DNA of 64,000 nucleotides from an uncultured virus (IMG/VR IMGVR_UViG_3300045391_004154). Taxonomy: Duplodnaviria > Heunggongvirae > Uroviricota > Caudoviricetes. Location: IMG/VR virus record IMGVR_UViG_3300045391_004154, one strand, 5' to 3'. Below the pieces are notes generated by a model. It saw only the letters and a list, made by a program, of their open reading frames with translations. It ran no database searches and was not told the DNA's origin. Every line of letters starts with the position of its first letter. The stretch's first letter is position 1. Of the stretch, positions 37,238-54,167 are shown one piece after another. The translations under genes were made by a program, and so were the position numbers.

Positions 37238-37434
37238 TTTTTCAACTCCACCTCAATCAGGTTGATGGGAATGCCGCTCAGGCTCGAGGCGGTACGCAGG
37301 CGATCCTGGGGCGCGCCGTCGCGACCGTCGCGCACGTAGGTCACGGCCGCGGCCAGCAGCCGCTCGCGCTGGCGCTTGAGGCCCTCCTGCATGTCGCCGT
37401 CGGGAAATTGATAGATGGCCTGCTCACCGCTCAT
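37234..37434 (-). CDS. Small hypothetical protein
   Basis: AAGGAG RBS, ATG at 37434. Confidence 0.45.
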   Translation of the reverse strand: MSGEQAIYQFPDGDMQEGLKRQRERLLAAAVTYVRDGRDGAPQDRLRTASSLSGIPINLIEVELKK

Positions 37435-38425
37435 TTTGATACTCCTTCGGTAATGGGGCGCAGTTCTCGCCGGGCAGCATCTTGCGATATTGGCGCCAGC
37501 CGTCGAAGTTGCCGTGCTGCCTGCGGTTGGCCCAGGCGGAGGATATGATTCCACTGGGATCAATCATGTAGTCGGGACGCGCCTGGTGCTCGGCCGGCGA
37601 CGCGTGGATGGGCTCCTCGGGATCGTAGAAGTCGGTGCCGGGAATGTTGAGCCGGGCATAGGTGCGCAGGTCCTCGCCCCAGGTGCTGCGCTTGCCGGTC
37701 TCAAAGCTGGTGGTGCTCACGCGGGCGCAGCGCGCCACCGAGGTCTTGATGATCCGTTCGCGCAGGGCCTCGAAGTTATAGGTGCCCTCCTCCAGCATCT
37801 CCACCTGCAACTTGGTCCAGTCCATTGGTCCGATATAGGGCAGGTGCCACTCCTCGTCGCTCAGGTGCTCCGGCTCGCTGTTCTTGATCGCCGGCCAGAT
37901 GGCATCGGCCAGCGCCTTGAACTCCGGCTGCGCCGCCCGATGCAGCCGCAGGCCAAAGAAGTTGTCCCAGTCCGTGGCGGTGATGATGCCGTGCACCCAT
38001 AGATACGGCTCCAGCACCCGGTTGGCAATCTGCTTGTGCAGGCCCAGCTTGGCCAGGCTCTCGGCCTGGATGGCGGCAAAACCGGCGGCGGCGCGCCACT
38101 GGCGCTTGGCCATCTCGCGATCCGTCACGGTAAAATATTGTCCGTCCGTATCCATCACCGTGTGCTTGCGCGCGGTATCATCCAGCTCCTCGGCCGCCTG
38201 CATGCCGGCCTGGTTCTTGCCCCAGAAGACTGGCATGGCCGGGTTGGTACGAACCTCCTCCAGCATCTTGGCGACGGGCACGGCGCGGCTGCTGCGATAG
38301 TTGCGGCTCAGCGCGCGATGCGTGTTGATCTCCGCCAGGATGAAGCGGTGCGCGGTGACCTCTACCGAGGTAATCCGCTTGCCAGCCGGTGAGATGCTGT
38401 CGCAGACGACGTCGGCGCGAATCAT
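37424..38425 (-). CDS. thyX: Flavin-dependent thymidylate synthase
   Basis: RFILAE..THR..SRN..SSRAVP, HKQIANR.LEP, FF.LR.H..AQPE, SVARCARVS, HASP.EH. Confidence 0.85.
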   Translation of the reverse strand: MIRADVVCDSISPAGKRITSVEVTAHRFILAEINTHRALSRNYRSSRAVPVAKMLEEVRTNPAMPVFWGKNQAGMQAAEELDDTARKHTVMDTDGQYFTVTDREMAKRQWRAAAGFAAIQAESLAKLGLHKQIANRVLEPYLWVHGIITATDWDNFFGLRLHRAAQPEFKALADAIWPAIKNSEPEHLSDEEWHLPYIGPMDWTKLQVEMLEEGTYNFEALRERIIKTSVARCARVSTTSFETGKRSTWGEDLRTYARLNIPGTDFYDPEEPIHASPAEHQARPDYMIDPSGIISSAWANRRQHGNFDGWRQYRKMLPGENCAPLPKEYQNER

Positions 38426-38913
38426 GATTTTTTCTCCGTCGGACCAGCATGCACGGACAGGCTGGCGTTTGCATCGAGTTCCGTAAAACCCTCGCGCATC
38501 TTTCCGGCCAAAATATGAGCCAATGCGGCGCGCACCTGCGGCGTAACATTCTCGGCCATATTGAAGGCCTTCACCAGGGCCAGACGCTTCTGCAGGGCAC
38601 CCTCTTCACCATTGCGCTTGCGCTCCTCCTCTACGATATTCTCGCCCACGGCCATAGCTCCCGCTAGCATCGCGGCGACGAACACCAAATCACCGCAAGG
38701 AAACTTGGATTCATGGGTATGAGCCATCTCCTGGAGATGATCACGCACCTTGGGAGTATACATGACAAATTCCAAGGCGGCAGTACCCACGGCGGTCTTG
38801 AGCGGATCAATCGGCCCGTGCTTGGCGGTGTCGTCGTGCAGCGCGTCCTTGAAGGCCGCGGCGCGCACCTCGGGTGAAACATTCTCCATCAGCTTTTTCA
38901 GTAAATCACTCAT
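38422..38913 (-). CDS. Hypothetical protein
   Basis: AAGGAG RBS; coupled to thyX. Confidence 0.6.
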   Translation of the reverse strand: MSDLLKKLMENVSPEVRAAAFKDALHDDTAKHGPIDPLKTAVGTAALEFVMYTPKVRDHLQEMAHTHESKFPCGDLVFVAAMLAGAMAVGENIVEEERKRNGEEGALQKRLALVKAFNMAENVTPQVRAALAHILAGKMREGFTELDANASLSVHAGPTEKKS

Positions 38914-38928
38914 TGGTTCTCCTTGGCT

Positions 38929-39471
38929 CTATAGTCGGCTCTTGATGAATATATTACCGCCAAACTTCGCTTGGGCTCGGCGCATGCGGGCAGCGTCTTC
39001 TGGGTGCAAACCCAACAGCAAACTTGGAAACCATTTTTGCTCAAATGGCTTGCCGCTTGGTTTGTAGAAGGTAAGCCGGTGATCTGGAAACCAGATGGCA
39101 GCGCTCTTTTCCATGATGAGCTGCGTGGCCGCGGTCTCGGTGGCGCGGCCGTTGAGCAGTGCAATTCCACTATTCTGCTCCACGAACTTCCTGGCCCACT
39201 GCAGCACGCCGCGATAGGGCGGGTTCATGAATACCCGATCGCGCGGACGCCACGGATAGTCCAGCCCATTTAGCACTGCCGGATAATAAAAGCCCTTCGC
39301 CGTCTTTCGCACGCTACCATCGGTCAGCATCAACCGGGCCGTGCGCCACGGCATCTTCGGCGGGCAGCACGGGTCAAGATCAAACGGGCCCAGCAGCTTC
39401 ACCAGCGCTGGGTCGGTGAGGTAGGTATTGGACCAGTTCTTTTGATCGGAATAGGGCGTGGCATCAGCCAT
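38929..39471 (-). CDS. Phage DNA N6-adenine methyltransferase-like protein
   Basis: LGPFDLDPC, NGL...W, VFMNPPY, GIALL..R..ET, RLTFY; ATG at 39471. Confidence 0.75.
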   Translation of the reverse strand: MADATPYSDQKNWSNTYLTDPALVKLLGPFDLDPCCPPKMPWRTARLMLTDGSVRKTAKGFYYPAVLNGLDYPWRPRDRVFMNPPYRGVLQWARKFVEQNSGIALLNGRATETAATQLIMEKSAAIWFPDHRLTFYKPSGKPFEQKWFPSLLLGLHPEDAARMRRAQAKFGGNIFIKSRL

Positions 39472-39928
39472 TTGTAATGTGCTCCCAGGTCCGGCGCGTC
39501 GGGAGAATGTCACCGTGCCGCGGCTTAAGCCACCGCCCCCTGCTCTCGGCATCGTGCGCGTAGGGCTCCGAAAATACGATCCGCAGGCAGCCGGTGTTTA
39601 GGAGCGCCTTGACGCAATCGAGGCAGGGGGAGTGCGTGACATAGCAGGTGTGGATCAACCGCACGTCGGGGCAGCGGAGCAGCGCGTTGATCTCGGCGTG
39701 AATGGCCTCGCAGGCTTGCAGGTTCTTTCCACTCGGGGCGTTGCGGCCGGCGCATGGAAAGATATCACAATGGGCCTGGCCACTCGCCGGCCCGTTGTAG
39801 CCGGAGGAGATGGGATAGCCGTCCGCGTCCATCAGCAGGCAGCCGACCTGGCGCCGGCCGCAGGTGCCGCGGCGCGCCCAGGCCGCGGCGATCGCCAGGC
39901 CCGTTTCGTCTAGGGTTGCGCGGCTCAT
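39464..39928 (-). CDS. dCMP deaminase
   Basis: TC.RRQVG, GYNG, IHAEINAL, THSPCLDC. Confidence 0.88.
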   Translation of the reverse strand: MSRATLDETGLAIAAAWARRGTCGRRQVGCLLMDADGYPISSGYNGPASGQAHCDIFPCAGRNAPSGKNLQACEAIHAEINALLRCPDVRLIHTCYVTHSPCLDCVKALLNTGCLRIVFSEPYAHDAESRGRWLKPRHGDILPTRRTWEHITNG

Positions 39929-40803
39929 CCGAACAACTCCCCGAGGAAGTGCGCCGACTGCAGCGACCATTGGCCGCGGGCGCAGGCCCAGAGGTGCGCG
40001 ATGAGGTCATCGCTGGTCTGGAACTCGGCGAGGTTGAGCGAGCGCATGACCTTTTCACTCGCCTCGTTTAAACACGCTTGTGCGCCGTCGCTGTCCACCT
40101 GATAGAGGTGCTGCGAGCCGGCGGTGAGGGTGAGGTAGCCGAGCTCCAGCTCGCGCAGCGCCGCGAGAGTGGTCTTCTGCTCGCCCAGCAATAGCTCAGC
40201 ATTTTGGGAGCTCAGGATTTTGCTGGCCTGGCCGCGCAGCTCCAGCGCCACGACGGCCGCCGCCATGGAGAAGTTGAAGATGTCGTAGACCCAGCCGGTC
40301 CAGATGTCGGAGCTGCGCATGGTGGCAACGCAGTGCAGCTTGCCGCCCCGGATGAGGAACTGCCAGGAGAGCGTGCAGGGCGTGTCCTTGCTCGGCCGCG
40401 GCTGCTCGCGCCAGATGTTCACGACGGCCTGACGAGAGGCGGGATCGCGCACGAGGGTATCCACCACGAAGGAGAGCTGGTCCACGAACTTGGGCCCGTA
40501 GGCCCCGAAGTAGCGCCGGCCGTCATCGCTCAAATCCTTGATGGCCTTGGCGTAGGGCGCGATGGTTGAGACGCGGTTGTCGCCGGACAAAATCCAGGCG
40601 GCCTCGGCGCACATGAACTTGTAGCCGAGCTTTCGGCCCGGAGAGAGTACCACAGGGTTGCTCATGTCGATTGTGGTCTGATAGGCGACCAGCTCCCGGT
40701 TCGCCCGGCCGCGCCAGGTGGCGCCAGCGGACATGGGAGAAACACTCACGCCACTGTGGAGCAAATCCATGAGGGCGCGTTTCCAAACCAGGGTGGTGCT
40801 CAT
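39925..40803 (-). CDS. Thymidylate synthase-fold enzyme, probably dCMP-specific (methyl- or hydroxymethyltransferase)
   Basis: GAYG, SRQAV, KDTPCT, QF.IR, MRSSD.W.G..YD.F, GSQHLY; ATG at 40803. Confidence 0.8.
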   Translation of the reverse strand: MSTTLVWKRALMDLLHSGVSVSPMSAGATWRGRANRELVAYQTTIDMSNPVVLSPGRKLGYKFMCAEAAWILSGDNRVSTIAPYAKAIKDLSDDGRRYFGAYGPKFVDQLSFVVDTLVRDPASRQAVVNIWREQPRPSKDTPCTLSWQFLIRGGKLHCVATMRSSDIWTGWVYDIFNFSMAAAVVALELRGQASKILSSQNAELLLGEQKTTLAALRELELGYLTLTAGSQHLYQVDSDGAQACLNEASEKVMRSLNLAEFQTSDDLIAHLWACARGQWSLQSAHFLGELFG

Positions 40804-41810
40804 ATTTTCAATGCCTCTTGCAGTAGGGTTCGATATTTTTCGGGATGCTGGGCCTGGAAGCGGCGGGCCCATTGGGGATGCGGAATGCTTGCCGCGTTGG
40901 GAAAGCTCAGCTCCTCCACCCGCCGCGCCGCGATCCCGCCCAGCGCGATCACGCGCGTGGTGGCGGAGAGGTGATCGCGCAGAAAGCGCAGCCAGTCGTG
41001 GCCGATGGCGTTGGTCCACAGTGCCTGGTCCTCGCGGAATTTGAGCTTATGCAATTGCTTGTTGAAATAGGTCGCCGAGCTCATCTCGTCGTTCCACAGG
41101 AACGGCGCGGCCCGGTTGCAGGCCCGTGGGCTCAGCTGCTCGCCCACGAACAGGTAGCGGGGATCGCGCGGGTTGCCGGTGAGGTTGGGCAGGTCGGTGG
41201 CGAAGGTTTCGCCGGCGTGGCGGCGCAGGGCGTAGACCCGGCCCACGATGGTATCCATGGCGATGTCCAGGAGCTTGGCCGATATGCCGGCAATCTCGAA
41301 GTCGTACACCAGCACGTCATCGCGCAGCGGATAGTCCTGAAACTGGGTAAGCTGGTTGTAATACCACTTGCCGTCGGCCGCCAGGTTGCCGCTGGCCAGA
41401 TCGAGATAGCGTTGCGCCACCATCTCCATGCGAGCAAACTTCTCCACCCGGGTGCGCTTCAGCTCCTCGAAGTGCTTCATGTGACCGGCAAAGTCGCGCC
41501 GGACGCACAGCACCGTCACGGCGCCGTAGCGCAGCAGGGCGCGATCCAGGCACCTGGCGCCCAGATCGTAGGCTGGCCCGTCGCGGAAGGTGTCGCCGTA
41601 TATCTGCTCGGAGAGCCAGAGCCGGTCAATGATGACCAGCTGCTTCTGACTGCGCTTGATTGCCAGATCAACCGTCGCCAAATGCCGCTTCCAGATATCC
41701 GGCCACAGGCCATTGTGAATGTAAAAGGCGTCATAGCGCTTCACGAGCGCGCGGGCCAGCGTAGTCTTGCCCGTGCCGTCGGCGCCCTCCAGGATAATAA
41801 TGCCCTTCAA
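40800..41810 (-). CDS. dNMP kinase fused to a uracil-DNA glycosylase-like domain
   Basis: LEGADGTGKTT, IDR..LSE.IYG; then LFVGE, WTNA, VIALG..A, HP. Confidence 0.75.
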   Translation of the reverse strand: MKGIIILEGADGTGKTTLARALVKRYDAFYIHNGLWPDIWKRHLATVDLAIKRSQKQLVIIDRLWLSEQIYGDTFRDGPAYDLGARCLDRALLRYGAVTVLCVRRDFAGHMKHFEELKRTRVEKFARMEMVAQRYLDLASGNLAADGKWYYNQLTQFQDYPLRDDVLVYDFEIAGISAKLLDIAMDTIVGRVYALRRHAGETFATDLPNLTGNPRDPRYLFVGEQLSPRACNRAAPFLWNDEMSSATYFNKQLHKLKFREDQALWTNAIGHDWLRFLRDHLSATTRVIALGGIAARRVEELSFPNAASIPHPQWARRFQAQHPEKYRTLLQEALKI

Positions 41811-41811
41811 T

Positions 41812-41967
41812 TCAATCTCCCTGCGATAGCTTGCGTTTAAACAGCATCGCCTTGCCGCTCGGGTAGAGCGCGCAAAACTCCCAGGTGGGGTCGAGGTGCT
41901 TCCAGAACACGTCGTCGGGCCCGGGAATAACCACGAACTCCGCCACCAGATATTCCCAGCGGTCCAT
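41812..41967 (-). CDS. Small protein (DUF4177-like)
   Basis: 52 codons: MDRWEY...WEF...LFKR; below the ORF-track cutoff. Confidence 0.45.
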   Translation of the reverse strand: MDRWEYLVAEFVVIPGPDDVFWKHLDPTWEFCALYPSGKAMLFKRKLSQGD

Positions 41968-41972
41968 GATTG

Positions 41973-42161
41973 CTATTCCTTCGGCCCAATCAGGTTCAAG
42001 CTCAGCTTGACCCCCTCGGGCGCGCCGTCCACCTTGGCAAAGCCGCTGGTGCTGGCGATCATCCGCGACTTACCGGTGCCGCTCAGCGGCGCGGCCTTCA
42101 CCTGCTCGGCGGTGCACGGAATGCGCACCACCACTTCACCGTTTTCATACGAGATTTTCAT
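41973..42161 (-). CDS. Small hypothetical protein
   Basis: S.TGKS..IAST.G motif; GGAG RBS. Confidence 0.6.
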   Translation of the reverse strand: MKISYENGEVVVRIPCTAEQVKAAPLSGTGKSRMIASTSGFAKVDGAPEGVKLSLNLIGPKE

Positions 42162-42185
42162 TTGGTTCTCCCAGCTCTGTTTCGA

Positions 42186-42230
42186 AACTAAACCCTAGTC
42201 TCTCGGGTAAACAAAAGTAAACACTGTTTA
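42186..42230 (-). promoter_or_regulatory. Leftward promoter-like element
   Basis: Minus strand GTTTACTTTTGTTTA (shared with the 29.9 kb element), 18-nt spacer, TAGGGT. Confidence 0.5.
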
Positions 42231-42713
42231 TTCGCCGATCCGGAAGCGCTTGGCGTGCTGCTCCAGGATGGGCGCGTGGTTCGGCGGCACGAAGTCCTTT
42301 GGTTTCACCACGTCCAGGCTATGCCCGCGAGTCGATCGCGGATCACCCGCGGACACAGCCCGCTCCTTGCTCATGTTGGCGCGCTGCACCTCGGCGAAGA
42401 CCTCGTTGAGTGGAATACCCAGCATGTGCGCGGTGCCATCAGTGACATACTTCAAGTCGGCCAATGCGTCAGCGGCCTTCTCCAGGTCCTTGCCGTCATC
42501 GGGATATTCGTTGAGGTAATCCTGAGCCCGACTGATGGCATCGGCCGCGTTGCTGTAGCCACAGGCAAGCACCAGCTCCGAGAGCTCCTCCATCAGGAAT
42601 TTTATTCTAAAGCAGATGGTGCTCTCGTCGGGAAACCCGGGTGGCGTGCTCTCGGCCACGGGCAGGTCAAACTTGCGGTGGAACTCGCCCACCAGGTTGA
42701 AGGTATCGGTCAT
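42228..42713 (-). CDS. MazG/PRA-PH-like NTP pyrophosphohydrolase
   Basis: V.EFH.KF, R...L.EEL.EL, ADALADL.YV..G, F.EV.RANMSK, KP..F..P. Confidence 0.82.
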   Translation of the reverse strand: MTDTFNLVGEFHRKFDLPVAESTPPGFPDESTICFRIKFLMEELSELVLACGYSNAADAISRAQDYLNEYPDDGKDLEKAADALADLKYVTDGTAHMLGIPLNEVFAEVQRANMSKERAVSAGDPRSTRGHSLDVVKPKDFVPPNHAPILEQHAKRFRIGE

Positions 42714-42716
42714 GCT

Positions 42717-43244
42717 CTATCTCCGTCTAATTATGTTGATAATTTCCGCCTCACTGATGGGGCGATAGTCGGCGTAGTCGCAGTCCACTCCGACGTCCAG
42801 GAAGGTGCAGAGCTCCTGGCGCGGCGGCTTGCCCTTGCCGCCGTGATGATGGCCGTGCAGCACCAGGCCATTAGCCATCGGGTCGTGCAGGTGGAGTCGG
42901 CGCGGGTCGTGGATCAGGTTGACCTTCCAGCCATTTGAGAAGCAAATGACGGAGTAATCCTCCACGCTGGCCCAGCCCCTGGCCTTGTAGGTATCGCGAT
43001 GATCGTGGTTGCCCTTGCGCAGATGCTTGGTGCCATGCAGCTCCACCAGGATGCACTCGAGCTCGGGCCGGCGAAAGTATAGCGCCACGTCTCCCAGCAC
43101 GAACACCTCGTCCTCCGGCCGCACGGTGTCGTTCCAGCGGCAAATCAGCTGCTCGTGCATGTGGGCCAGGTCGCGAAACGGCCGCTCGCAATAGTCAATG
43201 ATCTTGTCGTGGCCGAAGTGGAGATCGGAGGTGAAGTATCTCAT
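42717..43244 (-). CDS. Calcineurin-like metallophosphoesterase
   Basis: TSDLHFGH, LGD, GNHD, LHGHHH, DVGVD. Confidence 0.85.
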   Translation of the reverse strand: MRYFTSDLHFGHDKIIDYCERPFRDLAHMHEQLICRWNDTVRPEDEVFVLGDVALYFRRPELECILVELHGTKHLRKGNHDHRDTYKARGWASVEDYSVICFSNGWKVNLIHDPRRLHLHDPMANGLVLHGHHHGGKGKPPRQELCTFLDVGVDCDYADYRPISEAEIINIIRRR

Positions 43245-43582
43245 TTCTCACCGTGCGTCACGTTCCGCGGGATATCCTCCAGAAGGTATTCACCCTCCAG
43301 CGCCGCCAGATCGCCGACGGCGTAGAAGGCCGCGCCGAGCTCGCGATAGCCCTCCACCGAATAACCAATCAGCATGTAGAACTGGTTCAGCTCGGCCTCG
43401 GTAAACTCGCCTTCGTGATAGCGCTTGACGATCTCGTTGAGGTCCAGCCTCTTGGGGCCGGTGCCTCTAAGGTCCAGCAGCGCGGTGACAATCCGGTTTT
43501 CCTGAAACCGCGGCTTGTTATCCGGGCCCAGGATAACGGGCTGCATCGGCAGCCCATTCATCGGTTCAAGCAGTCTCTTCAT
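43241..43582 (-). CDS. Hypothetical protein
   Basis: PMQP, RFQEN.IV, QF..LIGYSV.GY.EL. Confidence 0.6.
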   Translation of the reverse strand: MKRLLEPMNGLPMQPVILGPDNKPRFQENRIVTALLDLRGTGPKRLDLNEIVKRYHEGEFTEAELNQFYMLIGYSVEGYRELGAAFYAVGDLAALEGEYLLEDIPRNVTHGEK

Positions 43583-45080
43583 CGGCTTCCTCCTCCATCT
43601 GCGCCTCAATGGACTTCGGCACGGCGAACGGCAGGAGCTCGGCCGGGAATTTCCGTATCTCCGGCACGGCATCCTTGCCGCGCAACAGCTTGAGGTTCTT
43701 GCGCTGCGTCGCCACATCGTTCTTGCTCACCAGGCTCTCCGGCCAGTGATGCTTGATGATAGCCACCAGCTGGTCGGCGGTGAAGCGGTCCAGGGATATC
43801 AGCTCCTGGAGGTAGCGCATGCGGCCCTGCTTGCGATCGGGCTCGGGTATCGGCGCGCCCACGAGCAGGTTCGCCACGGGCACCTCCACCCGCCGCTTGC
43901 CACCCACCCCCTGACTCTTGGCCCGCGGCGCGCCCTCAAAGCGGGCGGCCGGAATGTGCTGGACGAGCTCGCGAGCAGGGGGGAGCTCGTGAACGTAGGA
44001 ATGACCCTCCGCGGGAGGCTCGCGCAATTCCACGTGGAAGACGCCAGGCCGCTCGGGCTTGGTCCCGGTGCGAATGGCGTTGGCCACCACGCCGCCCAGC
44101 CAGGAGCCACACGGCGGGCAGACGCCGCGCGCGATGAGAGAGAAGGCCGCGTTGGGAGTGGTGGCGGCGAACTCGTAGTCCGGCGGAAAGCCGCAGAGGG
44201 CTGCGCCCTCATTGACGGTAACAAAGCGCTTTTCCGTCGGATGAATGAGGGCGTAGCCCACGAAGGCATCGGCCGGTCGGTCAACCGGCAGGCGGCGATG
44301 GCCGAAGCTGGGCCGGCCGATAATCTGGCCCTGCTCGCCGCGCTTCCACTGGTCCTGCGGCACGAAGCGCTCCCAATAGTCGCGCACCTTCTCGCCCGGC
44401 TCCATTTCGAAATAGGTATTCTGCAGCCACTTGGCAACGAGCGGTTCGATCTTCACCGTCCAGTCCAGCCTGGTGGGCGTAACCTCCTGGAGGCATTCCA
44501 GCGCGGTCTTGGGTGGCGCCCAGTTGGGCAGCGGCCAGCCGATGTTGACCTTGGAGCAAACCATGAAGAAGCGCTTGCGGCTCTGTGGCACACCGTGCCA
44601 CTTGGTGTCATGGAGCACGTAATAGACGTTGTACCCGAGCTCCAGGGCCTTCTTCTCGAGCTCGCGCAGCACCTCCTGGCCCTTGCCATAGGCCTGCGTC
44701 ACGCTTTCGGTGGCCCAGACGGTCGGGCGCAGCTTCTCCAGCAGGCCGAAGTGCCGCACGGTACACTGCACGCGCGGATCGGTCCGCCACTTGTCGGCGC
44801 CGCGCGTCTTGGTGTAGCCGGCCACCGACCAGGCGGCGCAGGGTGGATTGCCGTAGATGAAATCGAGTTCTTGGAACTCGGGTTCATCTACGGGCCACTC
44901 TGAATTCGGATAATGAATGGGCAGGTCCGGGTAGTTCTTCTGCACGGTTGCCACCCCGTAGTCACTCTCCTCGAAATGGGCGATGACGTCGAAGTGGTCG
45001 CGCACCCCGATGGAGAAGCCACCGGCGAAGACGTTGGCGGCGAGGGCGCGGAGCTTGGGCTGAGTTTTCTTTTTGGTCAC
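43566..45080 (-). CDS. C5-cytosine DNA methyltransferase-fold enzyme with divergent motifs I, VI and X and an extra C-terminal domain
   Basis: FAGGFSIG, GNPPC, ESV, GVPQSRKR, RF.TV.E.A.L.GFP, IARGVCPP. Confidence 0.85.
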   Translation of the reverse strand: MTKKKTQPKLRALAANVFAGGFSIGVRDHFDVIAHFEESDYGVATVQKNYPDLPIHYPNSEWPVDEPEFQELDFIYGNPPCAAWSVAGYTKTRGADKWRTDPRVQCTVRHFGLLEKLRPTVWATESVTQAYGKGQEVLRELEKKALELGYNVYYVLHDTKWHGVPQSRKRFFMVCSKVNIGWPLPNWAPPKTALECLQEVTPTRLDWTVKIEPLVAKWLQNTYFEMEPGEKVRDYWERFVPQDQWKRGEQGQIIGRPSFGHRRLPVDRPADAFVGYALIHPTEKRFVTVNEGAALCGFPPDYEFAATTPNAAFSLIARGVCPPCGSWLGGVVANAIRTGTKPERPGVFHVELREPPAEGHSYVHELPPARELVQHIPAARFEGAPRAKSQGVGGKRRVEVPVANLLVGAPIPEPDRKQGRMRYLQELISLDRFTADQLVAIIKHHWPESLVSKNDVATQRKNLKLLRGKDAVPEIRKFPAELLPFAVPKSIEAQMEEEADEETA

Positions 45081-45104
45081 GGGTATTCCTTGGCTGGTTG
45101 AGAG

Positions 45105-45476
45105 TTAGCGACGACGATAGAGGCCCTTGGCCGGTGAGACAATGAGCTTATAGATATTGTTCATGAGGGACATCTGCGGGCTGCAGTTGCTTTCCTTGAA
45201 GTTGTTCTCCTTCAAGAAGGTCTTGACCTGCTTGAGGTTGAATTCGGTACCGCTGGGCATCTGCTGCACCCAGGCTCGGACGGCCTCGGTGATGGGAGAG
45301 CCCTTTGACTGGGTAATTACCCGCTTCTTGGGCGGCATAACGGCGGTCGTGATGGGACCATTACCGACGGTAGTTACCTGCAGGTTGCTGACCTCCTTGG
45401 TCAGCACCTCCAGGACGGTGGTAAGCCGGTTCTGCGGAATGTCGAATGAGACGTGGAACATGCTTTGAACTTTCAT
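45105..45476 (-). CDS. Hypothetical protein, possible winged helix
   Basis: AAGGAG RBS; C-terminal ...SPAKGLYR. Confidence 0.55.
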   Translation of the reverse strand: MKVQSMFHVSFDIPQNRLTTVLEVLTKEVSNLQVTTVGNGPITTAVMPPKKRVITQSKGSPITEAVRAWVQQMPSGTEFNLKQVKTFLKENNFKESNCSPQMSLMNNIYKLIVSPAKGLYRRR

Positions 45477-45501
45477 GACGGTTCTCCTTTGGCTCTGTTA
45501 A

Positions 45502-45723
45502 TTATCTTTTGGCGCGGCACTTCGGAACTGGGCCATACCAGACAAACATGTTGAGGTCGTTCCAGCTATCATCAGAGCCGAACTCGTAGATTTTATCGCG
45601 GCTCTTATCACCGTTGGTGTAGACCAGGAGCGGGACAATATCCGGGCTATGCGTTTGACGGCCGTAATAAACGCCATCTTCGGTCGGTGCCGGATTGATT
45701 TTGCGTCGCAGGACTCGGCTCAT
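45502..45723 (-). CDS. Small hypothetical protein
   Basis: PTEDG.YY...WYGP.P motif. Confidence 0.5.
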   Translation of the reverse strand: MSRVLRRKINPAPTEDGVYYGRQTHSPDIVPLLVYTNGDKSRDKIYEFGSDDSWNDLNMFVWYGPVPKCRAKR

Positions 45724-46421
45724 TTCTTCTTGCCCTTCTTCTTGGGCTTTTCAGCCGGCGCTGGCTCCGCCTTCACTACGGGCTTGGCGTCCTTCTCGGG
45801 CCAGGGCGGCACGTCGCCGCGGCCGAAGCGCGCCTGGCGGTCCTCCACGCTCATCTCCATGAGGATATTGTAGTTGTACTTGACGTCGGACTTCTTGGTG
45901 GTGCGGCCGGGCCAATTGCTCAGCACGATCTCCACCAGGCGCTCGGGCGTGTAGCTGCCCGTCATCCAGAGGCGCTGCATAAGCTTGCCGGAGCCCTCGT
46001 TCTGACCGGGCTTCTCGCCCTCGCCGGGAACGTAGACCTTCTCCACCTTGGCCGCGTTTAAACGCTCTGCGGCCGCGGCGCGCTGGGCCTTCTGCTCGGG
46101 GCTCAGCTCGGGCTCGGGCACGGGAAAGCCGAGCAGCTTCATGGCGAGCCGGTAGGTCGCCGAGTTGCGATCGTACTCCTCCGCCGTTCGCGCCAGCCGC
46201 ACCGCCACCTCCTGGTAGTTCCAGGCCGGCAGCAGGAGCTCCACGGGCTTGAGCCGATCCCAGATGGCGATGGGGCTCTTATCATAGGAGCAGTCGGCCG
46301 GTGACAAGAGCGTCACCCACTTTTGGCCGCGCTCCACCACGAGCAGCCGGCGCTTGCCGGCGCCGAAGGTTGGGATTTCATCCTCCAGGTGGACTTCCCA
46401 ATAGGTGATGTCGTCGCTCAT
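45720..46421 (-). CDS. Early protein carrying the shared ~50-aa domain
   Basis: GGAGG RBS; ...YTPERLVEIVLSNWPGRTTKKSDV...; basic tail. Confidence 0.65.
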   Translation of the reverse strand: MSDDITYWEVHLEDEIPTFGAGKRRLLVVERGQKWVTLLSPADCSYDKSPIAIWDRLKPVELLLPAWNYQEVAVRLARTAEEYDRNSATYRLAMKLLGFPVPEPELSPEQKAQRAAAAERLNAAKVEKVYVPGEGEKPGQNEGSGKLMQRLWMTGSYTPERLVEIVLSNWPGRTTKKSDVKYNYNILMEMSVEDRQARFGRGDVPPWPEKDAKPVVKAEPAPAEKPKKKGKKK

Positions 46422-46739
46422 TTATCCCCTCCGCAGAAAGATGAAAATCACCGTGGGTATCAGGATGGCCGCGGCCACCAGGCTATAGATGGCCGTCCAG
46501 ACTTGCGCGTCAGTTGGCATGGCTCAGCTCCGCGAGTAGGCCACGCCATAGTAGCGCAGCTTGGCTTCGTAGGCGTTGGCCATTATGGAGGAGCGAAAGT
46601 GAAACTCTCGCCATTCCCCGCTGAACGGCAGCAGGACCTTAAATATGTGCAGCTTCATCGTCACCACTCCTTGGGCTCGGGTGTACTCACAGTCTCCCCT
46701 CCGGGTGACTGTGAGCACACGCCTAGCTCACCGTGGGGC

Positions 46740-47441
46740 TTATTCGGCGGCCGGCAGCTTCTTGCCGTCGTTGCGCAGCTTCTGGCGGTTCCAGCTGACG
46801 TCGCTGGCCTTGGCGGAGCTGTCGGGGTAGTGCTTCTTGACCAGATCAAGAATGGCGGCGGTCGTGGCATTCTTGCCGCCCTTCATGAGCAGCGAGCGAA
46901 TGTAGCAGCCGCAGGTCATGTTGGCCTTCGGCGCCGAGGTGCTCAGCTCCTCAAAGAGCGGGGCCGCGACGCGGGGCTTGCGCTCGCCGGCCTTCTTGGC
47001 CGACTTCTTGACTGCAGGCTTCTTGGACTTCTTGGACTTCGTGGCCATCTGGCCCTCCGTTGGTTGGTCCGTCCCCTCCGAGGGGCCGGCGTTGATGGCG
47101 GCCGGGTTGGTATCCTGCTGATCCGTGGCCGTCGGCTTCGGGTCAAAGGGTTCTTCGGGCTGCTGCCCGTACTTGGCATTCAGCGCGGCGAACACCCGGC
47201 GCTGACCGTCTTGCTTGGTGGCGAACTTTGAGACATGCTTTTTCTCATCATCCGTCAGGCGATTGAACAACACGGCGAGATTGGGTCCCGAATAGCTGTT
47301 CAAATCCTCCGCCTCAATTACCACGACCTGAGTGGGCTGACCAGTGCCTGCCAAATATTGGCGAGCGGCCTCCCCGTGCGGGTGCGTGGTGATCAAAAGG
47401 TCCCTGAACAGGACCCCATGTGCAAGGGCGTATATCGTCAT
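46740..47441 (-). CDS. Early protein carrying the shared ~50-aa domain
   Basis: GGAGGAG RBS, ATG at 47441; Lys-rich linker; ...TTAAILDLVKKHYPDSSAKASDVSW... Confidence 0.65.
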   Translation of the reverse strand: MTIYALAHGVLFRDLLITTHPHGEAARQYLAGTGQPTQVVVIEAEDLNSYSGPNLAVLFNRLTDDEKKHVSKFATKQDGQRRVFAALNAKYGQQPEEPFDPKPTATDQQDTNPAAINAGPSEGTDQPTEGQMATKSKKSKKPAVKKSAKKAGERKPRVAAPLFEELSTSAPKANMTCGCYIRSLLMKGGKNATTAAILDLVKKHYPDSSAKASDVSWNRQKLRNDGKKLPAAE

Positions 47442-47564
47442 TTCTCCTCCGTGGCTCTGTTTACCATCTAAAGCGTTGCGAAGCAACACCTTAGATGGTA
47501 AGCCCAACTGGTCGGACGGAGCGGGGAATGCTTAACCGCCAGCTGGGCTCCCACTCACCGCGCC

Positions 47565-47993
47565 CTACGTGGGCGCAGGAACCTTGTTCTTCAAATCCGT
47601 CGCCGCCTTGATCCGGTCCACGATGCTGGTGGTATAGACCATGGTCTTTCCGGTCACGACGTTCCGCATCTTGATCGGATATTTGGTCCGATTGAGCGCT
47701 AGGCCGGCCACTTCCCACACCTGGTGCTGCAGCGTGACCTGCGTCCCGAAGTCAATGCCGCGCAGCCCATACATGGAAGCGTAGACGCTGAACTCGCGCC
47801 GTGCCGCGCTCTCCATCACCGACTTGTCGGCGATCTTCATTTCCAGCTGGAACTTGGCGGTGGCCTCATCAAAGCGGCCGTTGCCGACGCGGAACTCAAT
47901 TCCGTATTTCTCGCCCAGCTCCTTCAGGGCATCCTCAAGTGGAGAGCGGAGGCCCTTCAGGGCATCCTTGGAAAACTTCATGATCTTGGCCAT
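47565..47993 (-). CDS. First early protein (hypothetical)
   Basis: GGAGGAG RBS, ATG at 47993; RTKYPI motif. Confidence 0.65.
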   Translation of the reverse strand: MAKIMKFSKDALKGLRSPLEDALKELGEKYGIEFRVGNGRFDEATAKFQLEMKIADKSVMESAARREFSVYASMYGLRGIDFGTQVTLQHQVWEVAGLALNRTKYPIKMRNVVTGKTMVYTTSIVDRIKAATDLKNKVPAPT

Positions 47994-48216
47994 TAAAGGC
48001 TCCTCCATTGGTTTCTGCGTTGATCCGGTGCGGGGTCCCATAAGCTTGAGCCTGCTGCATCGCCCGTCCGAAGACGTACTAAAGCCTGCTCGTTGATGGG
48101 ACCCCCACCTTCCGCGACCTCCACTCACCACTCCTGAACCCACCCGTCTGCGCGTGTCCGAGGACACTATGCTTGGGCCGGGGTTCGTTGTTGGTACTCG
48201 GCCGATCACTGAAGCT

Positions 48217-48250
48217 GACTAAACCATGGCTCTGAACATCTGTAAACCCC
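48217..48250 (-). promoter_or_regulatory. Leftward early promoter-like element
   Basis: Minus strand GGGGTTTACAGATGTTCAGAGCCATGGTTTAGTC with AT-rich upstream sequence. Confidence 0.65.
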
Positions 48251-48289
48251 TCCTAGCCACTTTTTTCAAATTATTTTGGACCATTGATT

Positions 48290-49753
48290 TTAAAGGGGAA
48301 ACCCGTAGGCGGTCTTCGGGGCGACCAGATATAAGGTCTCCGAGGCCCGGGTGAGCCCGACGTAGAACACCCGGTGCTCGCTGTCCGGGTCCAGCCGATA
48401 GCCCCGCTGGGTCCGATAGGTGAGGTCCGTGGAGAGCAGGACGTTCTCCGCCTCGGCACCCTTCGCCCCGTGAATGGTCTCGATCCTCACGCGCGGCTCG
48501 CCGTCCAGCTTCTCGCCGCGGCGCCGGCAGGCCAGGTAGTATTCCCGATCCTCGAGGGGCAGCCGAATGAGAGCGTCGTGCCAGATGGGCGTGCAGTCCA
48601 TCTTCAACTCCGCGGCCGTATAGGTGCTCGCCTCCTTCAGCTCGCGCGTCACGCCGCAGAAGCGCAGCACCTCGGATACGTCGCTCGCCTCCACGCGCTT
48701 GCCGGCGCGAAGCGCCTCATAGGATTTGATGGCGATGATGTGCGCCGGCTTGACGCTCGGCTCACCCTTGAGCCGATACACAACCCCCTGCTCGCGCGCC
48801 ATCTGCGCCAGCGGGTTGAGCTGGGCGCGCGTCCGGGCGAGCAGGAGCCACTTGCCAGTGCTCAGGTCCACCTCCTCCGGCCGGTTGATCCACTCCACCC
48901 GGCCGGCGCGATCCTGGCTCCGCCACTCCTTGGCGTAGCGACGCTCAACCCGCGAGGCCACCGATTCCGCTAAGTCAAAAATTGACTTAGGCAGTCGGTG
49001 GGACAGGGGGAGAATGCGGCGCTGGAATGGCAGATTGAGGAAATGCTCCTCGGCGGCGCCGGCCCAGCGGTGAATGGATTGCAGGTCGTCGCCGGCATAA
49101 TAGACGTCATCGGCATCGGCGAAGGCCTTGCGCGCCACGTCGTATTGCGCCAGGGTGAAGTCCTGGGCCTCATCGAGAATGGCGAGCTTGACCGGCGCCG
49201 GCGGGACGTGCGCGTGCGCATAGGCCGTGAGCATGTCGGTGAAGTCCATCAGGTTCCAGTCGCGCTTATACGATCGGTAGGTGTCGGAGAAGCGCTTGAG
49301 CCGGAACCAATCCACGTCGCCGCCATGATCCTGCCACGCGTTTTCCAGGCCGCGCTTGGTGGTGCGCGCCAGGTGATCGATTGTGAGGAGCTCGTCGGCG
49401 TTGCGACGCGTGGCCGGCGAGTCCAGCATCGGGTTGAGGTCGTTGATGAGCTCGCCGGTGGCCGCGGAGAGCTCACCGAGGTGCTCCTCGCTCAGCACGT
49501 CGCGCGAGGTTAGGCCCAGCTCGCGGAACGCCAGGCTGTGGAGCGTGCGGAAGTAGGGCAGGTCGCGCTCGCTGAGGTTGAAGCGCTTGGTGGCGCGGTC
49601 CTTGGCCTCCTGGACGGCCGCACGGGTGAAGGAGACAAACGCGATGGAGGACGGCTGCAGCCCTTCTTCCATGGCCTGCTCCATGATCCCGAGCAGCTCG
49701 GTCGTCTTGCCGGCGCCGGGTCCACCCAGGATGAGGGTCTGGTTCTGGGTCAT
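48290..49753 (-). CDS. UvrD-like SF1 helicase (replication module)
   Basis: GGPGAGKTT, SFTR.A, FRTLHS, DEAQD, AGDD.QSI..WAGA, TIHGAKGAE, YVGLTRA. Confidence 0.88.
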   Translation of the reverse strand: MTQNQTLILGGPGAGKTTELLGIMEQAMEEGLQPSSIAFVSFTRAAVQEAKDRATKRFNLSERDLPYFRTLHSLAFRELGLTSRDVLSEEHLGELSAATGELINDLNPMLDSPATRRNADELLTIDHLARTTKRGLENAWQDHGGDVDWFRLKRFSDTYRSYKRDWNLMDFTDMLTAYAHAHVPPAPVKLAILDEAQDFTLAQYDVARKAFADADDVYYAGDDLQSIHRWAGAAEEHFLNLPFQRRILPLSHRLPKSIFDLAESVASRVERRYAKEWRSQDRAGRVEWINRPEEVDLSTGKWLLLARTRAQLNPLAQMAREQGVVYRLKGEPSVKPAHIIAIKSYEALRAGKRVEASDVSEVLRFCGVTRELKEASTYTAAELKMDCTPIWHDALIRLPLEDREYYLACRRRGEKLDGEPRVRIETIHGAKGAEAENVLLSTDLTYRTQRGYRLDPDSEHRVFYVGLTRASETLYLVAPKTAYGFPL

Positions 49754-49916
49754 TTAATCAGCTTCCCCCAGCGCCAGTATACGTAGAAGAAGGCCCAGGC
49801 AGTAAAATATACGCAATCACCAACCTGTTTCCAGTCGTGGGAGGCGAAGCCGTATAAAATGCTTCCAGTGGATACGGCTACCCACATGCTGAATAATTCG
49901 TGCTTCAAAAGATTTT

Positions 49917-54136: not shown

Positions 54137-54167
54137 ACCCAACCTATGTTATTCTTGTGAAAGCAGA

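What the first reader, a model, noticed from the sequence alone, without database searches (positions are those of the whole stretch)
43566..45080. C5-methyltransferase-fold enzyme with Arg replacing the motif X Asn: candidate natural DNA carboxymethyl/alkyl-transferase
Seen: the catalytic PC (GNPPC) and motif VIII (PQSRKR) are intact. Motif X reads IARGVCPP where canonical enzymes have IGNAVPP (Arg codon at 44127-44129). Motif I (NVFAGG vs FxGxGG) and motif VI (ESV vs ENV) are also altered. Established: putting a basic residue at this Asn (M.MpeI N374K, E. coli Dcm N436K) turns C5-MTases into carboxy-SAM-dependent carboxymethyltransferases. I recall natural phage examples being reported but cannot verify similarity here. 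Inference: this enzyme transfers something other than methyl. No CmoA-like Cx-SAM synthase is recognisable in the window, so the cofactor source is open.
Basis: partly seen in the sequence, partly recalled or inferred. Interest (0 to 1): 0.88.

Follow-up and report, generated by a model that had tools for sequence, protein, structure and literature searches.

The report
Arginine-pocket cytosine-C5 enzyme in hydroxymethylcytosine phage
This phage gene encodes an intact DNA cytosine-methylase-type enzyme whose cofactor pocket carries an arginine like the carboxymethylating enzyme CmoX published in 2025, but it belongs to a separate, unstudied phage lineage that never has CmoX's helper genes and always travels with the genes for making hydroxymethylcytosine, so what it puts on DNA is still unknown.

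Summary
ORF 43566-45080 (-) encodes a 504-aa C5-cytosine-methyltransferase-fold protein with intact catalytic residues (PC Cys81, Glu125, Arg168/Arg170). Arg318 (codon 44127-44129) sits where canonical enzymes have the motif X Asn. That position is Arg350 in SpCmoX, which contacts the carboxyl of carboxy-SAM.

The idea itself is already published (CmoX, Nat Commun Dec 2025). This protein, however, is not a CmoX-family member:
- It has NPPC where CmoX has SPPC, and ESV where CmoX has ENV.
- Motif I is two residues shorter.
- It forms a separate clade on a long branch.
- No CmoA was found in 0 of 77 related phage records, including 0 of 17 near-complete ones.

The lineage is phage-only, with 668 clusters at 50% identity. 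It always accompanies a ThyA homologue carrying the dCMP-hydroxymethylase signature (17 of 17 near-complete genomes). In relatives it is adjacent or fused to a T4 beta-glucosyltransferase-like protein, a UbiG-like methyltransferase, a MazG-like pyrophosphatase or a 5-hmdU-DNA-kinase helical domain.

Best reading (about 0.4): it is the DNA-level enzyme of a hydroxymethylcytosine modification pathway and does non-methyl C5 chemistry. Host-fed carboxymethylation remains a rival (about 0.2). The product is unknown.

The parts
43566..45080 (-). Gene for the 504-aa Arg-pocket C5-cytosine-transferase-fold enzyme (P0001); GTG start, stop at 43566-43568
44061..45068 (-). Catalytic C5-MTase-fold domain, residues about 5-340
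   Evidence: AF2 model pLDDT 90.2. VIA-align Z 26-28 to M.HaeIII, SpCmoX and M.HhaI over model residues 5-340.
45015..45035 (-). Motif I, NVFAGGF (residues 16-22). It is two residues shorter than the canonical FxGxGG loop.
   Evidence: HMMER alignment 'yiFA..GGF' against 'diFAgcGGL'. Phe18 is 112 F + 4 Y of 120.
44838..44852 (-). Motif IV, GNPPC (residues 77-81), followed by Ala82. Contains the catalytic Cys81.
   Evidence: Of 120 sequences: Cys81 120, Asn78 119, Ala82 117.
44700..44708 (-). Motif VI, ESV (residues 125-127), in place of ENV
   Evidence: Glu125, Ser126 and Val127 are each 120 of 120.
44571..44588 (-). Motif VIII, PQSRKR (residues 165-170)
   Evidence: Arg168 and Arg170 are each 120 of 120.
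44112..44135 (-). Motif X, IARGVCPP (residues 316-323). Arg318 codon CGC at 44127-44129.
43677..43856 (-). About 60-aa helical C-terminal domain of unknown function (residues about 409-468)
   Evidence: Domain HMM built from 38 of 83 rows of A1 hits this ORF at 5.6e-25. 125 of 247 family proteins carry the domain.
42228..42713 (-). MazG/HisE-like NTP pyrophosphohydrolase (PRA-PH), same operon; candidate dCTPase
   Evidence: PF01503 3.9e-14; phrog_671. A homologue lies next to the enzyme in 55 of 79 loci and is fused in P0064.
40800..41810 (-). P-loop (d)NMP-kinase-like protein with a weak UDG-like C-terminal half
   Evidence: Present in 52 of 79 loci.
39928..40803 (-). ThyA homologue with the dCMP-hydroxymethylase signature: Cys146, Asp169, Asn177->Asp, Leu143->Asp (E. 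coli ThyA numbering)
   Evidence: PF00303 3e-18. Best PDB match is MilA CMP hydroxymethylase at 1.3e-19. Signature present in 58 of 58 homologues. Criteria taken from PMC13326640.
39464..39970 (-). dCMP deaminase
   Evidence: PF00383 3.3e-15; phrog_174
37424..38425 (-). ThyX-type thymidylate synthase
   Evidence: phrog_85 4.6e-78
45855..46025 (-). Second copy of the 60-aa domain, inside ORF 45723-46421 (233 aa, unknown function)
   Evidence: hmmsearch 2.6e-13
46761..46937 (-). Third copy of the 60-aa domain, inside ORF 46743-47507 (255 aa, unknown function)
   Evidence: hmmsearch 1.7e-17

Best explanation
The gene encodes a catalytically competent DNA cytosine-C5 enzyme of a distinct, phage-only lineage (signature NPPC-A / ESV / A-R-G-V). 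I read it as the DNA-level member of the phage's 5-hydroxymethylcytosine (hmC) pathway, not as part of a CmoA/CmoX/CmoY system.

Shown:
- The fold is that of a C5-methyltransferase.
- Cys81, Glu125, Arg168 and Arg170 are invariant.
- Arg318 occupies the HhaI Asn304 / SpCmoX Arg350 site, and Ala82 occupies the HhaI Gln82 site.
- The enzyme is linked to a dCMP-hydroxymethylase module.
- Relatives are fused or adjacent to hmC-type capping enzymes.

Inferred:
- The neighbouring genes (MazG-like pyrophosphatase, ThyA-type dCMP hydroxymethylase, kinase) make hm-dCTP, so phage DNA carries hmC.
- The enzyme flips a cytosine base out of DNA. Cys81 attacks C6.
- The enlarged, cationic pocket next to C5 (Arg318, Ala82, Asn78, Ser126, shortened motif I) handles a polar substituent in place of a methyl group.
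- Either it installs an hmC-type handle on cytosines that escaped replacement, or it exchanges or derivatises the CH2OH of hmC through the covalent intermediate. In relatives the handle would then be capped by the fused or adjacent glucosyltransferase-like or O-methyltransferase-like enzyme.

The donor and the product are unknown.
For: (1) Catalytic apparatus. It is intact and under selection: Cys81, Glu125, Arg168 and Arg170 are 120 of 120, and Arg318 is 118 of 120. In 9 of 10 long relatives inspected, inteins sit exactly at GNPP|C.

(2) CmoA. There is no CmoA in the window. None was found in 0 of 77 related viral records, including 0 of 17 that are at least 90% complete. The positive control found SpCmoA at 2.5e-34.

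(3) ThyA homologue. It is present in 66 of 77 of those records and in 17 of 17 near-complete ones. All 58 homologues lying within 10 kb of the enzyme have Asn177->Asp, an acidic residue at Leu143 (57 D, 1 E) and a retained Asp169. That is the 5hm-dCMP-synthase signature given in PMC13326640 (passages and section 28).

(4) Published association. ThyA(N177D), PRA-PH and dCMP-deaminase domains co-occur on contigs with experimentally modified cytosines (PMC8670742 passages).

(5) Fusions. Among 247 family proteins held, 45 are fused to a UbiG-like class-I methyltransferase, 15 to protein X, and none to both. Single cases are fused to PRA-PH (5.3e-14), UDG4 (2.4e-24) and the 5-hmdU-DNA-kinase helical domain PF18723 (5.5e-26).

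(6) Protein X. It follows the enzyme in 44 of 78 loci and is fused in 2. Its AF2 model (pLDDT 83) matches T4 hmC beta-glucosyltransferase best: 5 top hits at E 1.7e-6 to 5.5e-6, TMq 0.52-0.58.

(7) The UbiG-like methyltransferase also occurs alone, in the same slot of an hm module, in the complete phage genome MW202510, which has no PF00145 gene.

(8) The CmoX prototype phage S-B43 has no ThyA homologue.

(9) Chemical precedent. M.MpeI forms covalent complexes with hmC DNA and swaps the hydroxymethyl group, lost as formaldehyde, for methyl (PMC11347137 passages).
Against: - No chemistry was measured. The base composition of this phage's DNA is unknown, and the hydroxymethylase call rests on signature residues.
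- The ribose-binding Glu (Glu37, 119 of 120) and the stacking Phe18 are conserved. This fits a SAM-type cofactor and therefore the CmoX-like rival.
- An Arg at exactly this site is what a Cx-SAM user is predicted to have.
- This window itself lacks the glucosyltransferase-like protein X (hmmsearch, no hit at E<=10) and the UbiG-like domain. The fusion argument therefore comes from relatives only.
- Co-occurrence is partly shared ancestry. Only 8 of 79 loci lack all the common replication-module genes; 6 of those 8 still have the ThyA homologue.
- One related record (G001/G002) carries the identical protein and is probably the same phage.
- No donor for a hydroxymethyl-type transfer by this fold is known in nature.
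Confidence: 0.4

Rival explanations
1. CmoX-like carboxymethyltransferase fed by the host. The enzyme binds Cx-SAM made by the host's own CmoA, Arg318 pairs with the carboxylate, and 5-carboxymethylcytosine is made on cytosines in DNA. In relatives the UbiG-like methyltransferase would methyl-esterify it.
For: - Arg318 aligns with SpCmoX Arg350, which contacts the Cx-SAM carboxymethyl group. R350N is inactive, and the wild type accepts only Cx-SAM (PMC12783734 Results).
- Ala82 parallels SpCmoX Ser99 at the PC-Gln site.
- Glu37 and Phe18 correspond to SpCmoX Glu47 and Phe25, which hold the ribose and adenine.
- E. coli's own CmoA was enough for SpCmoX to modify plasmid DNA in vivo.
- The tail sheath is most similar (52%) to those of Burkholderia phages. 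This is a weak hint of a proteobacterial host.
Against: - CmoA was found in 0 of 77 related records. The paper reports 4257 CmoA genes on the contigs of 5615 CmoX candidates.
- Related loci span 27-71% G+C, so all these hosts would need CmoA. In the tool's 14 control genomes only E. coli passes the CmoA cut-off.
- NPPC is not SPPC, ESV is not ENV, motif I is 2 residues shorter, and the SpCmoX Asp69 segment is absent.
- The enzyme forms a separate clade.
- The obligate link to an hmC module would leave few C5-H cytosines in phage DNA.
- The fused partners (a BGT-like glycosyltransferase, a UbiG-like O-methyltransferase) also occur without the enzyme in hydroxy(methyl)cytosine-type phages.
Confidence: 0.2
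2. Weapon against cytosine-containing host DNA. The enzyme modifies or traps ordinary cytosines in host DNA, while the phage's own hmC DNA is immune because C5 is blocked. This would explain why it is kept only in hmC phages.
For: - Complete canonical C5-H catalytic apparatus.
- Strict co-occurrence with the hydroxymethylase module.
- From recalled knowledge, not tested here: T4 carries several functions that act only on C-containing DNA.
Against: - Fusion to a BGT-like glycosyltransferase or an O-methyltransferase-like domain makes little sense if the two halves act on different DNAs.
- There is no nuclease or toxin partner.
- No precedent is known to me.
Confidence: 0.1
3. Ordinary SAM-dependent 5-methylcytosine methyltransferase with a tolerated Asn-to-Arg change.
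For: - PF00145 membership.
- M.MedI N377K still fully methylates with SAM, with more than 99% protection (PMC12015181 passages). A basic residue at this site therefore does not by itself exclude SAM.
Against: - Arg is fixed across a whole clade together with Ala82, Ser126, Asn78 and a shortened motif I.
- SpCmoX with Arg does not accept SAM.
- M.MpeI N374K methylates poorly, 28%.
- A 5mC methylase has no evident role in a phage that makes hm-dCMP.
Confidence: 0.05

Closest known systems
SpCmoX, DNA cytosine C5-carboxymethyltransferase of Synechococcus phage S-B43 (PDB 8YF3; Yang et al., Nat Commun 2025, PMC12783734)
   Same: - C5-MTase fold: Z 26.6, rmsd 3.0, 289 aa.
- PPC catalytic Cys.
- Arg at the HhaI Asn304 site.
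- A small residue after PC.
- A Glu for the ribose and a Phe for the adenine.
- Phage-encoded.
   Different: - 23% identity over 200 aa.
- The family profile scores 8YF3 (2.2e-19) no better than M.HaeIII (9e-23).
- NPPC against SPPC, ESV against ENV, motif I two residues shorter, and the Asp69 segment missing.
- Separate clade: the CmoX rows group with SPPC enzymes that have Leu or Met at this site.
- No CmoA or CmoY.
- S-B43 has no ThyA homologue, whereas this lineage always has one.
Canonical bacterial and phage C5-cytosine methyltransferases (M.HaeIII 1DCT, M.HhaI, PF00145)
   Same: - Fold: Z 28.5 and 26.3.
- Motifs IV, VI (Glu) and VIII.
- A target-recognition region between motifs VIII and IX.
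   Different: - Motif X Asn->Arg.
- PCQ->PCA.
- ENV->ESV.
- GxPC->NPPC.
- Motif I loop shortened.
- An extra 60-aa C-terminal domain.
- Never found in bacterial genomes: 2 weak MAG fragments among one genome for each of 185,579 species.
Engineered carboxymethyltransferases M.MpeI N374K and M.MedI N377K (PMC12015181)
   Same: A basic residue at the same motif X position creates affinity for Cx-SAM.
   Different: They are single laboratory substitutions (Lys) in otherwise canonical enzymes, and they retain SAM activity to varying degree. Here several pocket positions changed together in a natural clade.
T4-type hmC system (dCTPase gp56, dCMP hydroxymethylase gp42, dNMP kinase gp1, alpha/beta-glucosyltransferases) and the hmC carbamoyltransferase system (PMC8670742)
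   Same: Same module logic in the window and its relatives: MazG-like pyrophosphatase, ThyA(N177D) hydroxymethylase, kinase, dCMP deaminase. In 46 of 78 related loci there is also a BGT-like glycosyltransferase.
   Different: None of the described hmC systems contains a C5-methyltransferase-fold enzyme. In this window it is the only candidate DNA-level modifier.

Membership tests
C5-cytosine DNA methyltransferase superfamily (PF00145) | Two-domain C5-MTase fold | tested here: met
   PF00145 at E 1.1e-23. AF2 pLDDT 90.2. Z 26-28 to M.HaeIII, M.HhaI and DNMT1.
C5-cytosine DNA methyltransferase superfamily (PF00145) | Catalytic Pro-Cys (motif IV), the Glu of motif VI, and Arg-x-Arg of motif VIII | tested here: met
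   Cys81, Glu125, Arg168 and Arg170 are each 120 of 120.
C5-cytosine DNA methyltransferase superfamily (PF00145) | SAM-pocket motifs I (FxGxGG) and X (GN) | tested here: not met
   Motif I is FA--GGF, with two residues missing. Motif X is ARG.
CmoX (Cx-SAM-dependent DNA C5-carboxymethyltransferase) | Arg at the SpCmoX R350 / HhaI N304 position | tested here: met
   MAFFT and HMMER alignments. 118 of 120 homologues have Arg.
CmoX (Cx-SAM-dependent DNA C5-carboxymethyltransferase) | 'SPPC' motif, used by Yang et al. to define candidates | tested here: not met
   The motif here is GNPPC. Asn78 is 119 of 120. All 7 CmoX-clade rows have GSPPC.
CmoX (Cx-SAM-dependent DNA C5-carboxymethyltransferase) | Phage-encoded CmoA (Cx-SAM synthase) in the genome | tested here: not met
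   No hit in the window. 0 of 77 related records, and 0 of 17 near-complete ones. The control found SpCmoA at 2.5e-34.
CmoX (Cx-SAM-dependent DNA C5-carboxymethyltransferase) | Groups with SpCmoX in a tree | tested here: not met
   Tree of 38 rows. The 25 family rows form one clade (SH-aLRT 100) on a long branch. The 7 CmoX rows group with Leu/Met SPPC enzymes (97). The outgroup sample is small (6 rows).
CmoX (Cx-SAM-dependent DNA C5-carboxymethyltransferase) | Uses Cx-SAM and makes 5-carboxymethylcytosine | not testable with these tools
   Needs an enzyme assay or nucleoside LC-MS.
hmC-type DNA modification module (T4-like logic) | ThyA homologue with Asn177->Asp, an acidic residue at Leu143, and Asp169 retained | tested here: met
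   Window ORF 39928-40803 and 58 of 58 homologues in related loci. Criteria from PMC13326640.
hmC-type DNA modification module (T4-like logic) | NTP pyrophosphatase and nucleotide kinase beside the hydroxymethylase | tested here: met
   PRA-PH at 42228-42713 and the P-loop kinase-like ORF at 40800-41810. Seen in 55 and 52 of 79 loci respectively.
hmC-type DNA modification module (T4-like logic) | hmC actually present in virion DNA | not testable with these tools
   No cultured relative. The best tblastn hit in 50,697 phage records has 26.6% identity.

The most novel reading that the evidence does not exclude
A natural C5-methyltransferase-fold enzyme that has left SAM methyl transfer and works on DNA inside an hmC pathway. 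It would be one of two things. (a) A post-replicative DNA cytosine hydroxymethylase that converts leftover C to hmC, which fused glucosyltransferase-like or O-methyltransferase-like domains then cap. (b) An enzyme that uses the Cys-C6 adduct to expel the hydroxyl of hmC and attach another group through an exocyclic-methylene intermediate. Either would be a new enzymatic route to hypermodified cytosine in DNA.
Probability: 0.3. Interest if true: 0.85.

Novelty: new variant of a known kind. Interest (0 to 1): 0.62.

Why it matters
CmoX showed that a single pocket change lets phages put a carboxyl handle on DNA. This lineage shows a second, independent rebuilding of the same pocket. It is large: 668 clusters at 50% identity score E<=1e-30 against the family profile. 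It is phage-only and uncultured, and it is wired into hydroxymethylcytosine systems, not carboxy-SAM systems.

No described hmC system contains such an enzyme. Its product may therefore be an unknown DNA base, or it may be a 'proof-reading' step that makes modification complete. Either way, it is a defined, expressible target for finding new DNA chemistry. It could also yield tools for labelling C or hmC in sequencing methods.

Tried and rejected
- **CmoA and CmoY in the window.** The Pfam scan of 76 ORFs found no class-I methyltransferase or PP-loop ligase. SpCmoA and SpCmoY tblastn found nothing below E 0.77 in the window, and nothing at 1e-3 in the ORFs of the 78 loci.
- **Fused UbiG-like domain.** It is not in the window (tblastn best E 0.41). 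It is not CmoA-like: the best PDB match is UbiG at 3.8e-7 with no CmoA hit, and NCBIfam gives UbiG with weak CmoB hits.
- **Protein X in the window.** No hmmsearch hit at E<=10.
- **Protein X by sequence alone.** No Pfam family, 0 PDB sequence hits, phrog_14998 'unknown'. hhalign to T4 beta-GT gave probability 7%. Only the fold search supports the glycosyltransferase assignment.
- **Window kinase-like ORF against the 5-hmdU-DNA-kinase fusion P0096.** No similarity. The PDB search was uninformative.
- **ORF 51162-51746 against PDB.** Nothing.
- **C-terminal 60-aa domain.** No Pfam family and no Atlas hit.
- **Host.**
  - No tRNA genes.
  - The genome-contig scan gave only 2 MAG fragments.
  - The window's own assembly is not held.
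  - The tail sheath is 52% identical to those of Burkholderia phages, which is only a hint.
- **Sequencing runs.** No RNA holder is listed.
- **Promoter and terminator scan of 37000-50000.** Not above the shuffled controls.
- **Earlier-findings look-ups by place and by sequence.** Nothing.
- **Iyer et al. 2013 (NAR 41:7635).** It could not be read because it is not held. Whether it mentions this lineage is unknown to me.
- **Literature searches.** None returned a paper on a C5-methyltransferase-like enzyme in hmC phages.
- **Supplements of PMC12783734.** The list of 5615 CmoX candidates was not read, so I cannot exclude that some NPPC sequences are in it.
Full report
**The observation**

The minus-strand ORF 43566-45080 encodes 504 residues. 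It starts at GTG 45080, six bases after AAGGA.

It matches Pfam PF00145 at E 1.1e-23 over residues 19-324.
- NVFAGG, residues 16-21
- GNPPC, residues 77-81
- ESV, residues 125-127
- PQSRKR, residues 165-170
- IARGVCPP, residues 316-323

Arg318 is encoded by CGC at 44129-44127. HMMER aligns 'sliaRgvcpp' with 'rqigNavppp' of MET1.

An AlphaFold2 model built on an 83-sequence alignment has mean pLDDT 90.2. Residues 5-340 superpose on the following:
- M.HaeIII: Z 28.5, rmsd 2.5, 277 aa
- SpCmoX 8YF3: Z 26.6, rmsd 3.0, 289 aa
- M.HhaI: Z 26.3

Foldseek ranks the same families. A residue-level structural superposition could not be made. The placement of Arg318 on the motif X Asn therefore rests on sequence and profile alignments, plus alignments that span the whole domain.

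**What is already known**

A literature search found Yang et al., Nat Commun 2025 (PMC12783734). I read its outline, the whole Results, selected passages and the Discussion.
- Synechococcus phage S-B43 encodes CmoA (a Cx-SAM synthase), CmoX (a C5-MTase homologue that makes 5-carboxymethylcytosine) and CmoY (a glycine ligase).
- In the 8YF3 structure, Arg350 replaces HhaI Asn304 and contacts the carboxymethyl group.
- R350N is inactive, and the wild type accepts only Cx-SAM.
- The authors collected 5615 candidates defined by 'SPPC' plus Arg350. Their contigs carry 4257 CmoA genes.
- E. coli's own CmoA supported SpCmoX in vivo.

Passages of PMC12015181 confirm M.MpeI N374K and M.MedI N377K as engineered carboxymethyltransferases. 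They also show that M.MedI N377K still methylates fully with SAM.

**Is this protein a CmoX?**

I fetched SpCmoX from MN018232. MAFFT places its Arg350 on Arg318. Otherwise the two proteins are distant:
- 23% identity over 200 residues.
- The family profile scores 8YF3 at 2.2e-19, no better than M.HaeIII at 9e-23.
- The window protein has NPPC where SpCmoX has SPPC, and ESV where it has ENV.
- Its motif I is two residues shorter.
- It lacks the segment holding SpCmoX Asp69.

These features are fixed in its relatives. One search found 152 homologues, of which 120 were listed. Aligned, they give these counts out of 120:

| Position | Count |
|---|---|
| Arg318 | 118 (2 Gln) |
| Asn78 | 119 |
| Cys81 | 120 |
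| Ala82 | 117 |
| Glu125-Ser126-Val127 | 120 each |
| Arg168 and Arg170 | 120 each |
| Glu37 | 119 |

I built a quick IQ-TREE tree of 38 rows. The rows were 25 of the 247 family proteins held, 7 of the 121 CmoX-type proteins held, and 6 other phage C5-MTases taken from the hits.
- The family forms one clade (SH-aLRT 100) on a long branch.
- The CmoX rows group (97) with SPPC enzymes that carry Leu or Met at this site.

With so few outgroups this is only consistent with two independent origins of the Arg. It does not prove them.

**Size and range of the lineage**
- A profile search of 1.84 billion representatives finds 668 clusters at E<=1e-30.
- Among 50,697 phage records the best match has 26.6% identity.
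- One genome for each of 185,579 prokaryote species yielded only two weak MAG fragments.

The lineage is therefore uncultured and phage-only.

**Cofactor source**

TIGR00740 detects SpCmoA in S-B43 at 2.5e-34. The same search finds nothing in any of these:
- the 46-kb record that carries the identical protein
- 49 related viral records
- 28 further related viral records

That makes 0 of 77 records, with one locus (L033) not held. Among records at least 90% complete it is 0 of 17. One of those is a 74.5-kb genome with terminal repeats whose enzyme is 88% identical.

SpCmoA and SpCmoY tblastn against the window gives nothing below E 0.77.

**Context**

The window is a tailed-phage genome, with tail, baseplate and replication genes. 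The enzyme lies in a tight co-directional block. Listed here by rising window coordinate (the genes are read from the enzyme towards ThyX):
- ThyX (37424-38425)
- dCMP deaminase (39464-39970)
- a ThyA homologue (39928-40803)
- a P-loop kinase-like protein (40800-41810)
- a MazG/HisE-like pyrophosphatase (42228-42713)
- a phosphoesterase
- the enzyme itself

The ThyA homologue matches MilA CMP hydroxymethylase best (1.3e-19).

In the ORFs of the 78 related loci plus the window, a ThyA homologue lies within 10 kb in 58 of 79. All 58 have Cys146, Asp169, Asn177->Asp and Asp or Glu at Leu143. According to PMC13326640 (abstract, passages, section 28), these residues mean the following:
- Asn177->Asp gives dCMP specificity.
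- An acidic residue at position 143 goes with hydroxymethyl products.
- Asp169->Asn would mark 5-hydroxy-dCMP synthases.

Whole-record searches find the ThyA homologue in 66 of 77 records and in 17 of 17 near-complete ones.

PMC8670742 (passages) reports that ThyA(N177D), PRA-PH and dCMP-deaminase domains co-occur on contigs whose cytosines were experimentally shown to be modified. S-B43 has no ThyA homologue.

Most loci share one replication backbone, so these counts are not independent. Of the 8 loci without any backbone gene, 6 still have the ThyA homologue. The loci span 27-71% G+C.

**Fusions and neighbours in relatives**

Among 247 family proteins held:
- 45 are fused to a UbiG-like class-I methyltransferase
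- 15 are fused to a roughly 345-aa protein, X
- none is fused to both

Single proteins are fused to PRA-PH, to a family-4 UDG, and to the helical domain of 5-hmdU DNA kinase (PF18723, 5.5e-26).

X follows the enzyme and the MazG gene in 44 of 78 loci and is fused in 2. By sequence it is unassigned. Its AlphaFold2 model (pLDDT 83, pTM 0.84) matches T4 hmC beta-glucosyltransferase best, then other GT-B enzymes: the top five hits have E 1.7e-6 to 5.5e-6. Its homologues sit in T4-like phages, in one case next to a UDP-galactopyranose mutase.

The UbiG-like methyltransferase also occurs alone, in the same slot of an hm module, in the complete genome MW202510. That genome has no PF00145 gene.

This window has neither X nor the UbiG-like domain.

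**Reading**

The catalytic apparatus for covalent C6 attack on a cytosine is intact and strongly conserved. Inteins target exactly GNPP|C in 9 of 10 long relatives inspected.

The pocket next to C5 is enlarged and cationic. This fits a group larger than methyl, as in CmoX. But the total absence of CmoA, the obligate hmC module and the hmC-type partners argue that this lineage works inside an hmC pathway.

C5-methyltransferases are known to engage hmC covalently and to exchange its hydroxymethyl group (PMC11347137 passages). That such enzymes also add aldehydes to cytosine and couple thiols to hmC is recalled from the Klimasauskas laboratory's work, which I did not read here.

My odds:

| Reading | Probability |
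|---|---|
| hmC-pathway DNA enzyme with non-methyl C5 chemistry | about 0.4 |
| Host-fed Cx-SAM carboxymethylation | about 0.2 |
| Action against host C-DNA | about 0.1 |
| Plain 5mC methylation | about 0.05 |
| Other | the remainder |

Conserved Glu37 and Phe18, which hold the adenosine in SpCmoX, keep a SAM-type cofactor in play. This is the main point against my reading.

**Earlier notes of this scan**

One search returned earlier notes describing the same kind of lineage beside hmC genes (e1-6037563, e1-6034312). I tested that claim here and it holds for this window's family. Those notes are AI notes, not independent evidence.

**Verdict**
- The concept is known, but this is a distinct variant with an open, testable function.

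Noticed in passing
window 43677-43856, 45855-46025, 46761-46937 (all on the minus strand): A roughly 60-aa helical domain of unknown function occurs on three proteins of one operon: the enzyme and ORFs 45723-46421 and 46743-47507. The domain HMM hits exactly these 3 of 722 six-frame ORFs (E 5.6e-25, 2.6e-13, 1.7e-17). In fused relatives it sits between the C5-like domain and the second enzyme.
   Followed up: partly
L062:11878-12933:+ and 45 other related loci; absent from the window: Protein X (about 345 aa, phrog_14998 'unknown') is predicted to have a GT-B fold closest to T4 hmC beta-glucosyltransferase (Foldseek E 1.7e-6). It is adjacent or fused to the C5-like enzyme. It also occurs in T4-like Aeromonas, Stenotrophomonas and Erwinia phages, where it is annotated as hypothetical.
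   Followed up: partly
window 39928-40803 (-) and 37424-38425 (-): The phage carries both a ThyX thymidylate synthase and a ThyA homologue with the dCMP-hydroxymethylase signature. The ORF listing start at 41019 overcalls the ThyA gene. The likely start is the ATG at 40803, which overlaps the stop of the kinase-like gene (ATGA).
   Followed up: partly
window 40800-41810 (-): The P-loop kinase-like protein (336 aa) has a weak uracil-DNA-glycosylase-superfamily match in its C-terminal half (PF03167, E 0.0099, residues 212-331). A family-4 UDG is fused to the C5-like enzyme in relative P0075.
   Followed up: partly
L086 (Flavobacterium phage FPSV-S2) and L087 (Methylophilales phage Melnitz-3): These annotated phage C5-methyltransferases have the SPPC motif but Met (IGMSVPP) or Leu (IGLMVAP) at the motif X Asn site. 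They group with the CmoX clade in the tree. They are further pocket variants of unknown cofactor use.
   Followed up: no
proteins P0079, P0243, P0244, P0246, P0247, P0249, P0251, P0254, P0315: LAGLIDADG inteins are inserted exactly at the catalytic GNPP|C of the C5-like enzyme in 9 of 10 long relatives inspected.
   Followed up: partly
L092 (MW202510, complete 41.7-kb phage genome) 6981-10223: Gene order: [UbiG-like class-I methyltransferase]-[NTP-PPase]-[kinase]-[pyrimidine hydroxymethylase]-[dCMP deaminase]-[PolA]. There is no C5-MTase gene. The methyltransferase is homologous (E 1e-28) to the domain fused to the C5-like enzyme elsewhere, which hints at an O-methylated hmC.
   Followed up: partly
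window 51162-51746 (-): A 195-aa ORF has a weak nucleoside 2-deoxyribosyltransferase-family match (PF05014, E 7.6e-6, below cut-off). The PDB sequence search found nothing.
   Followed up: partly
window 52553-54142 (-): The replication primase matches the AEP domain of the TOTE conflict system (PF22548, 9.5e-19). Two UvrD-like helicases (27469-29064, 48293-49753) and an SNF2 helicase (57578-59203) are also present.
   Followed up: no
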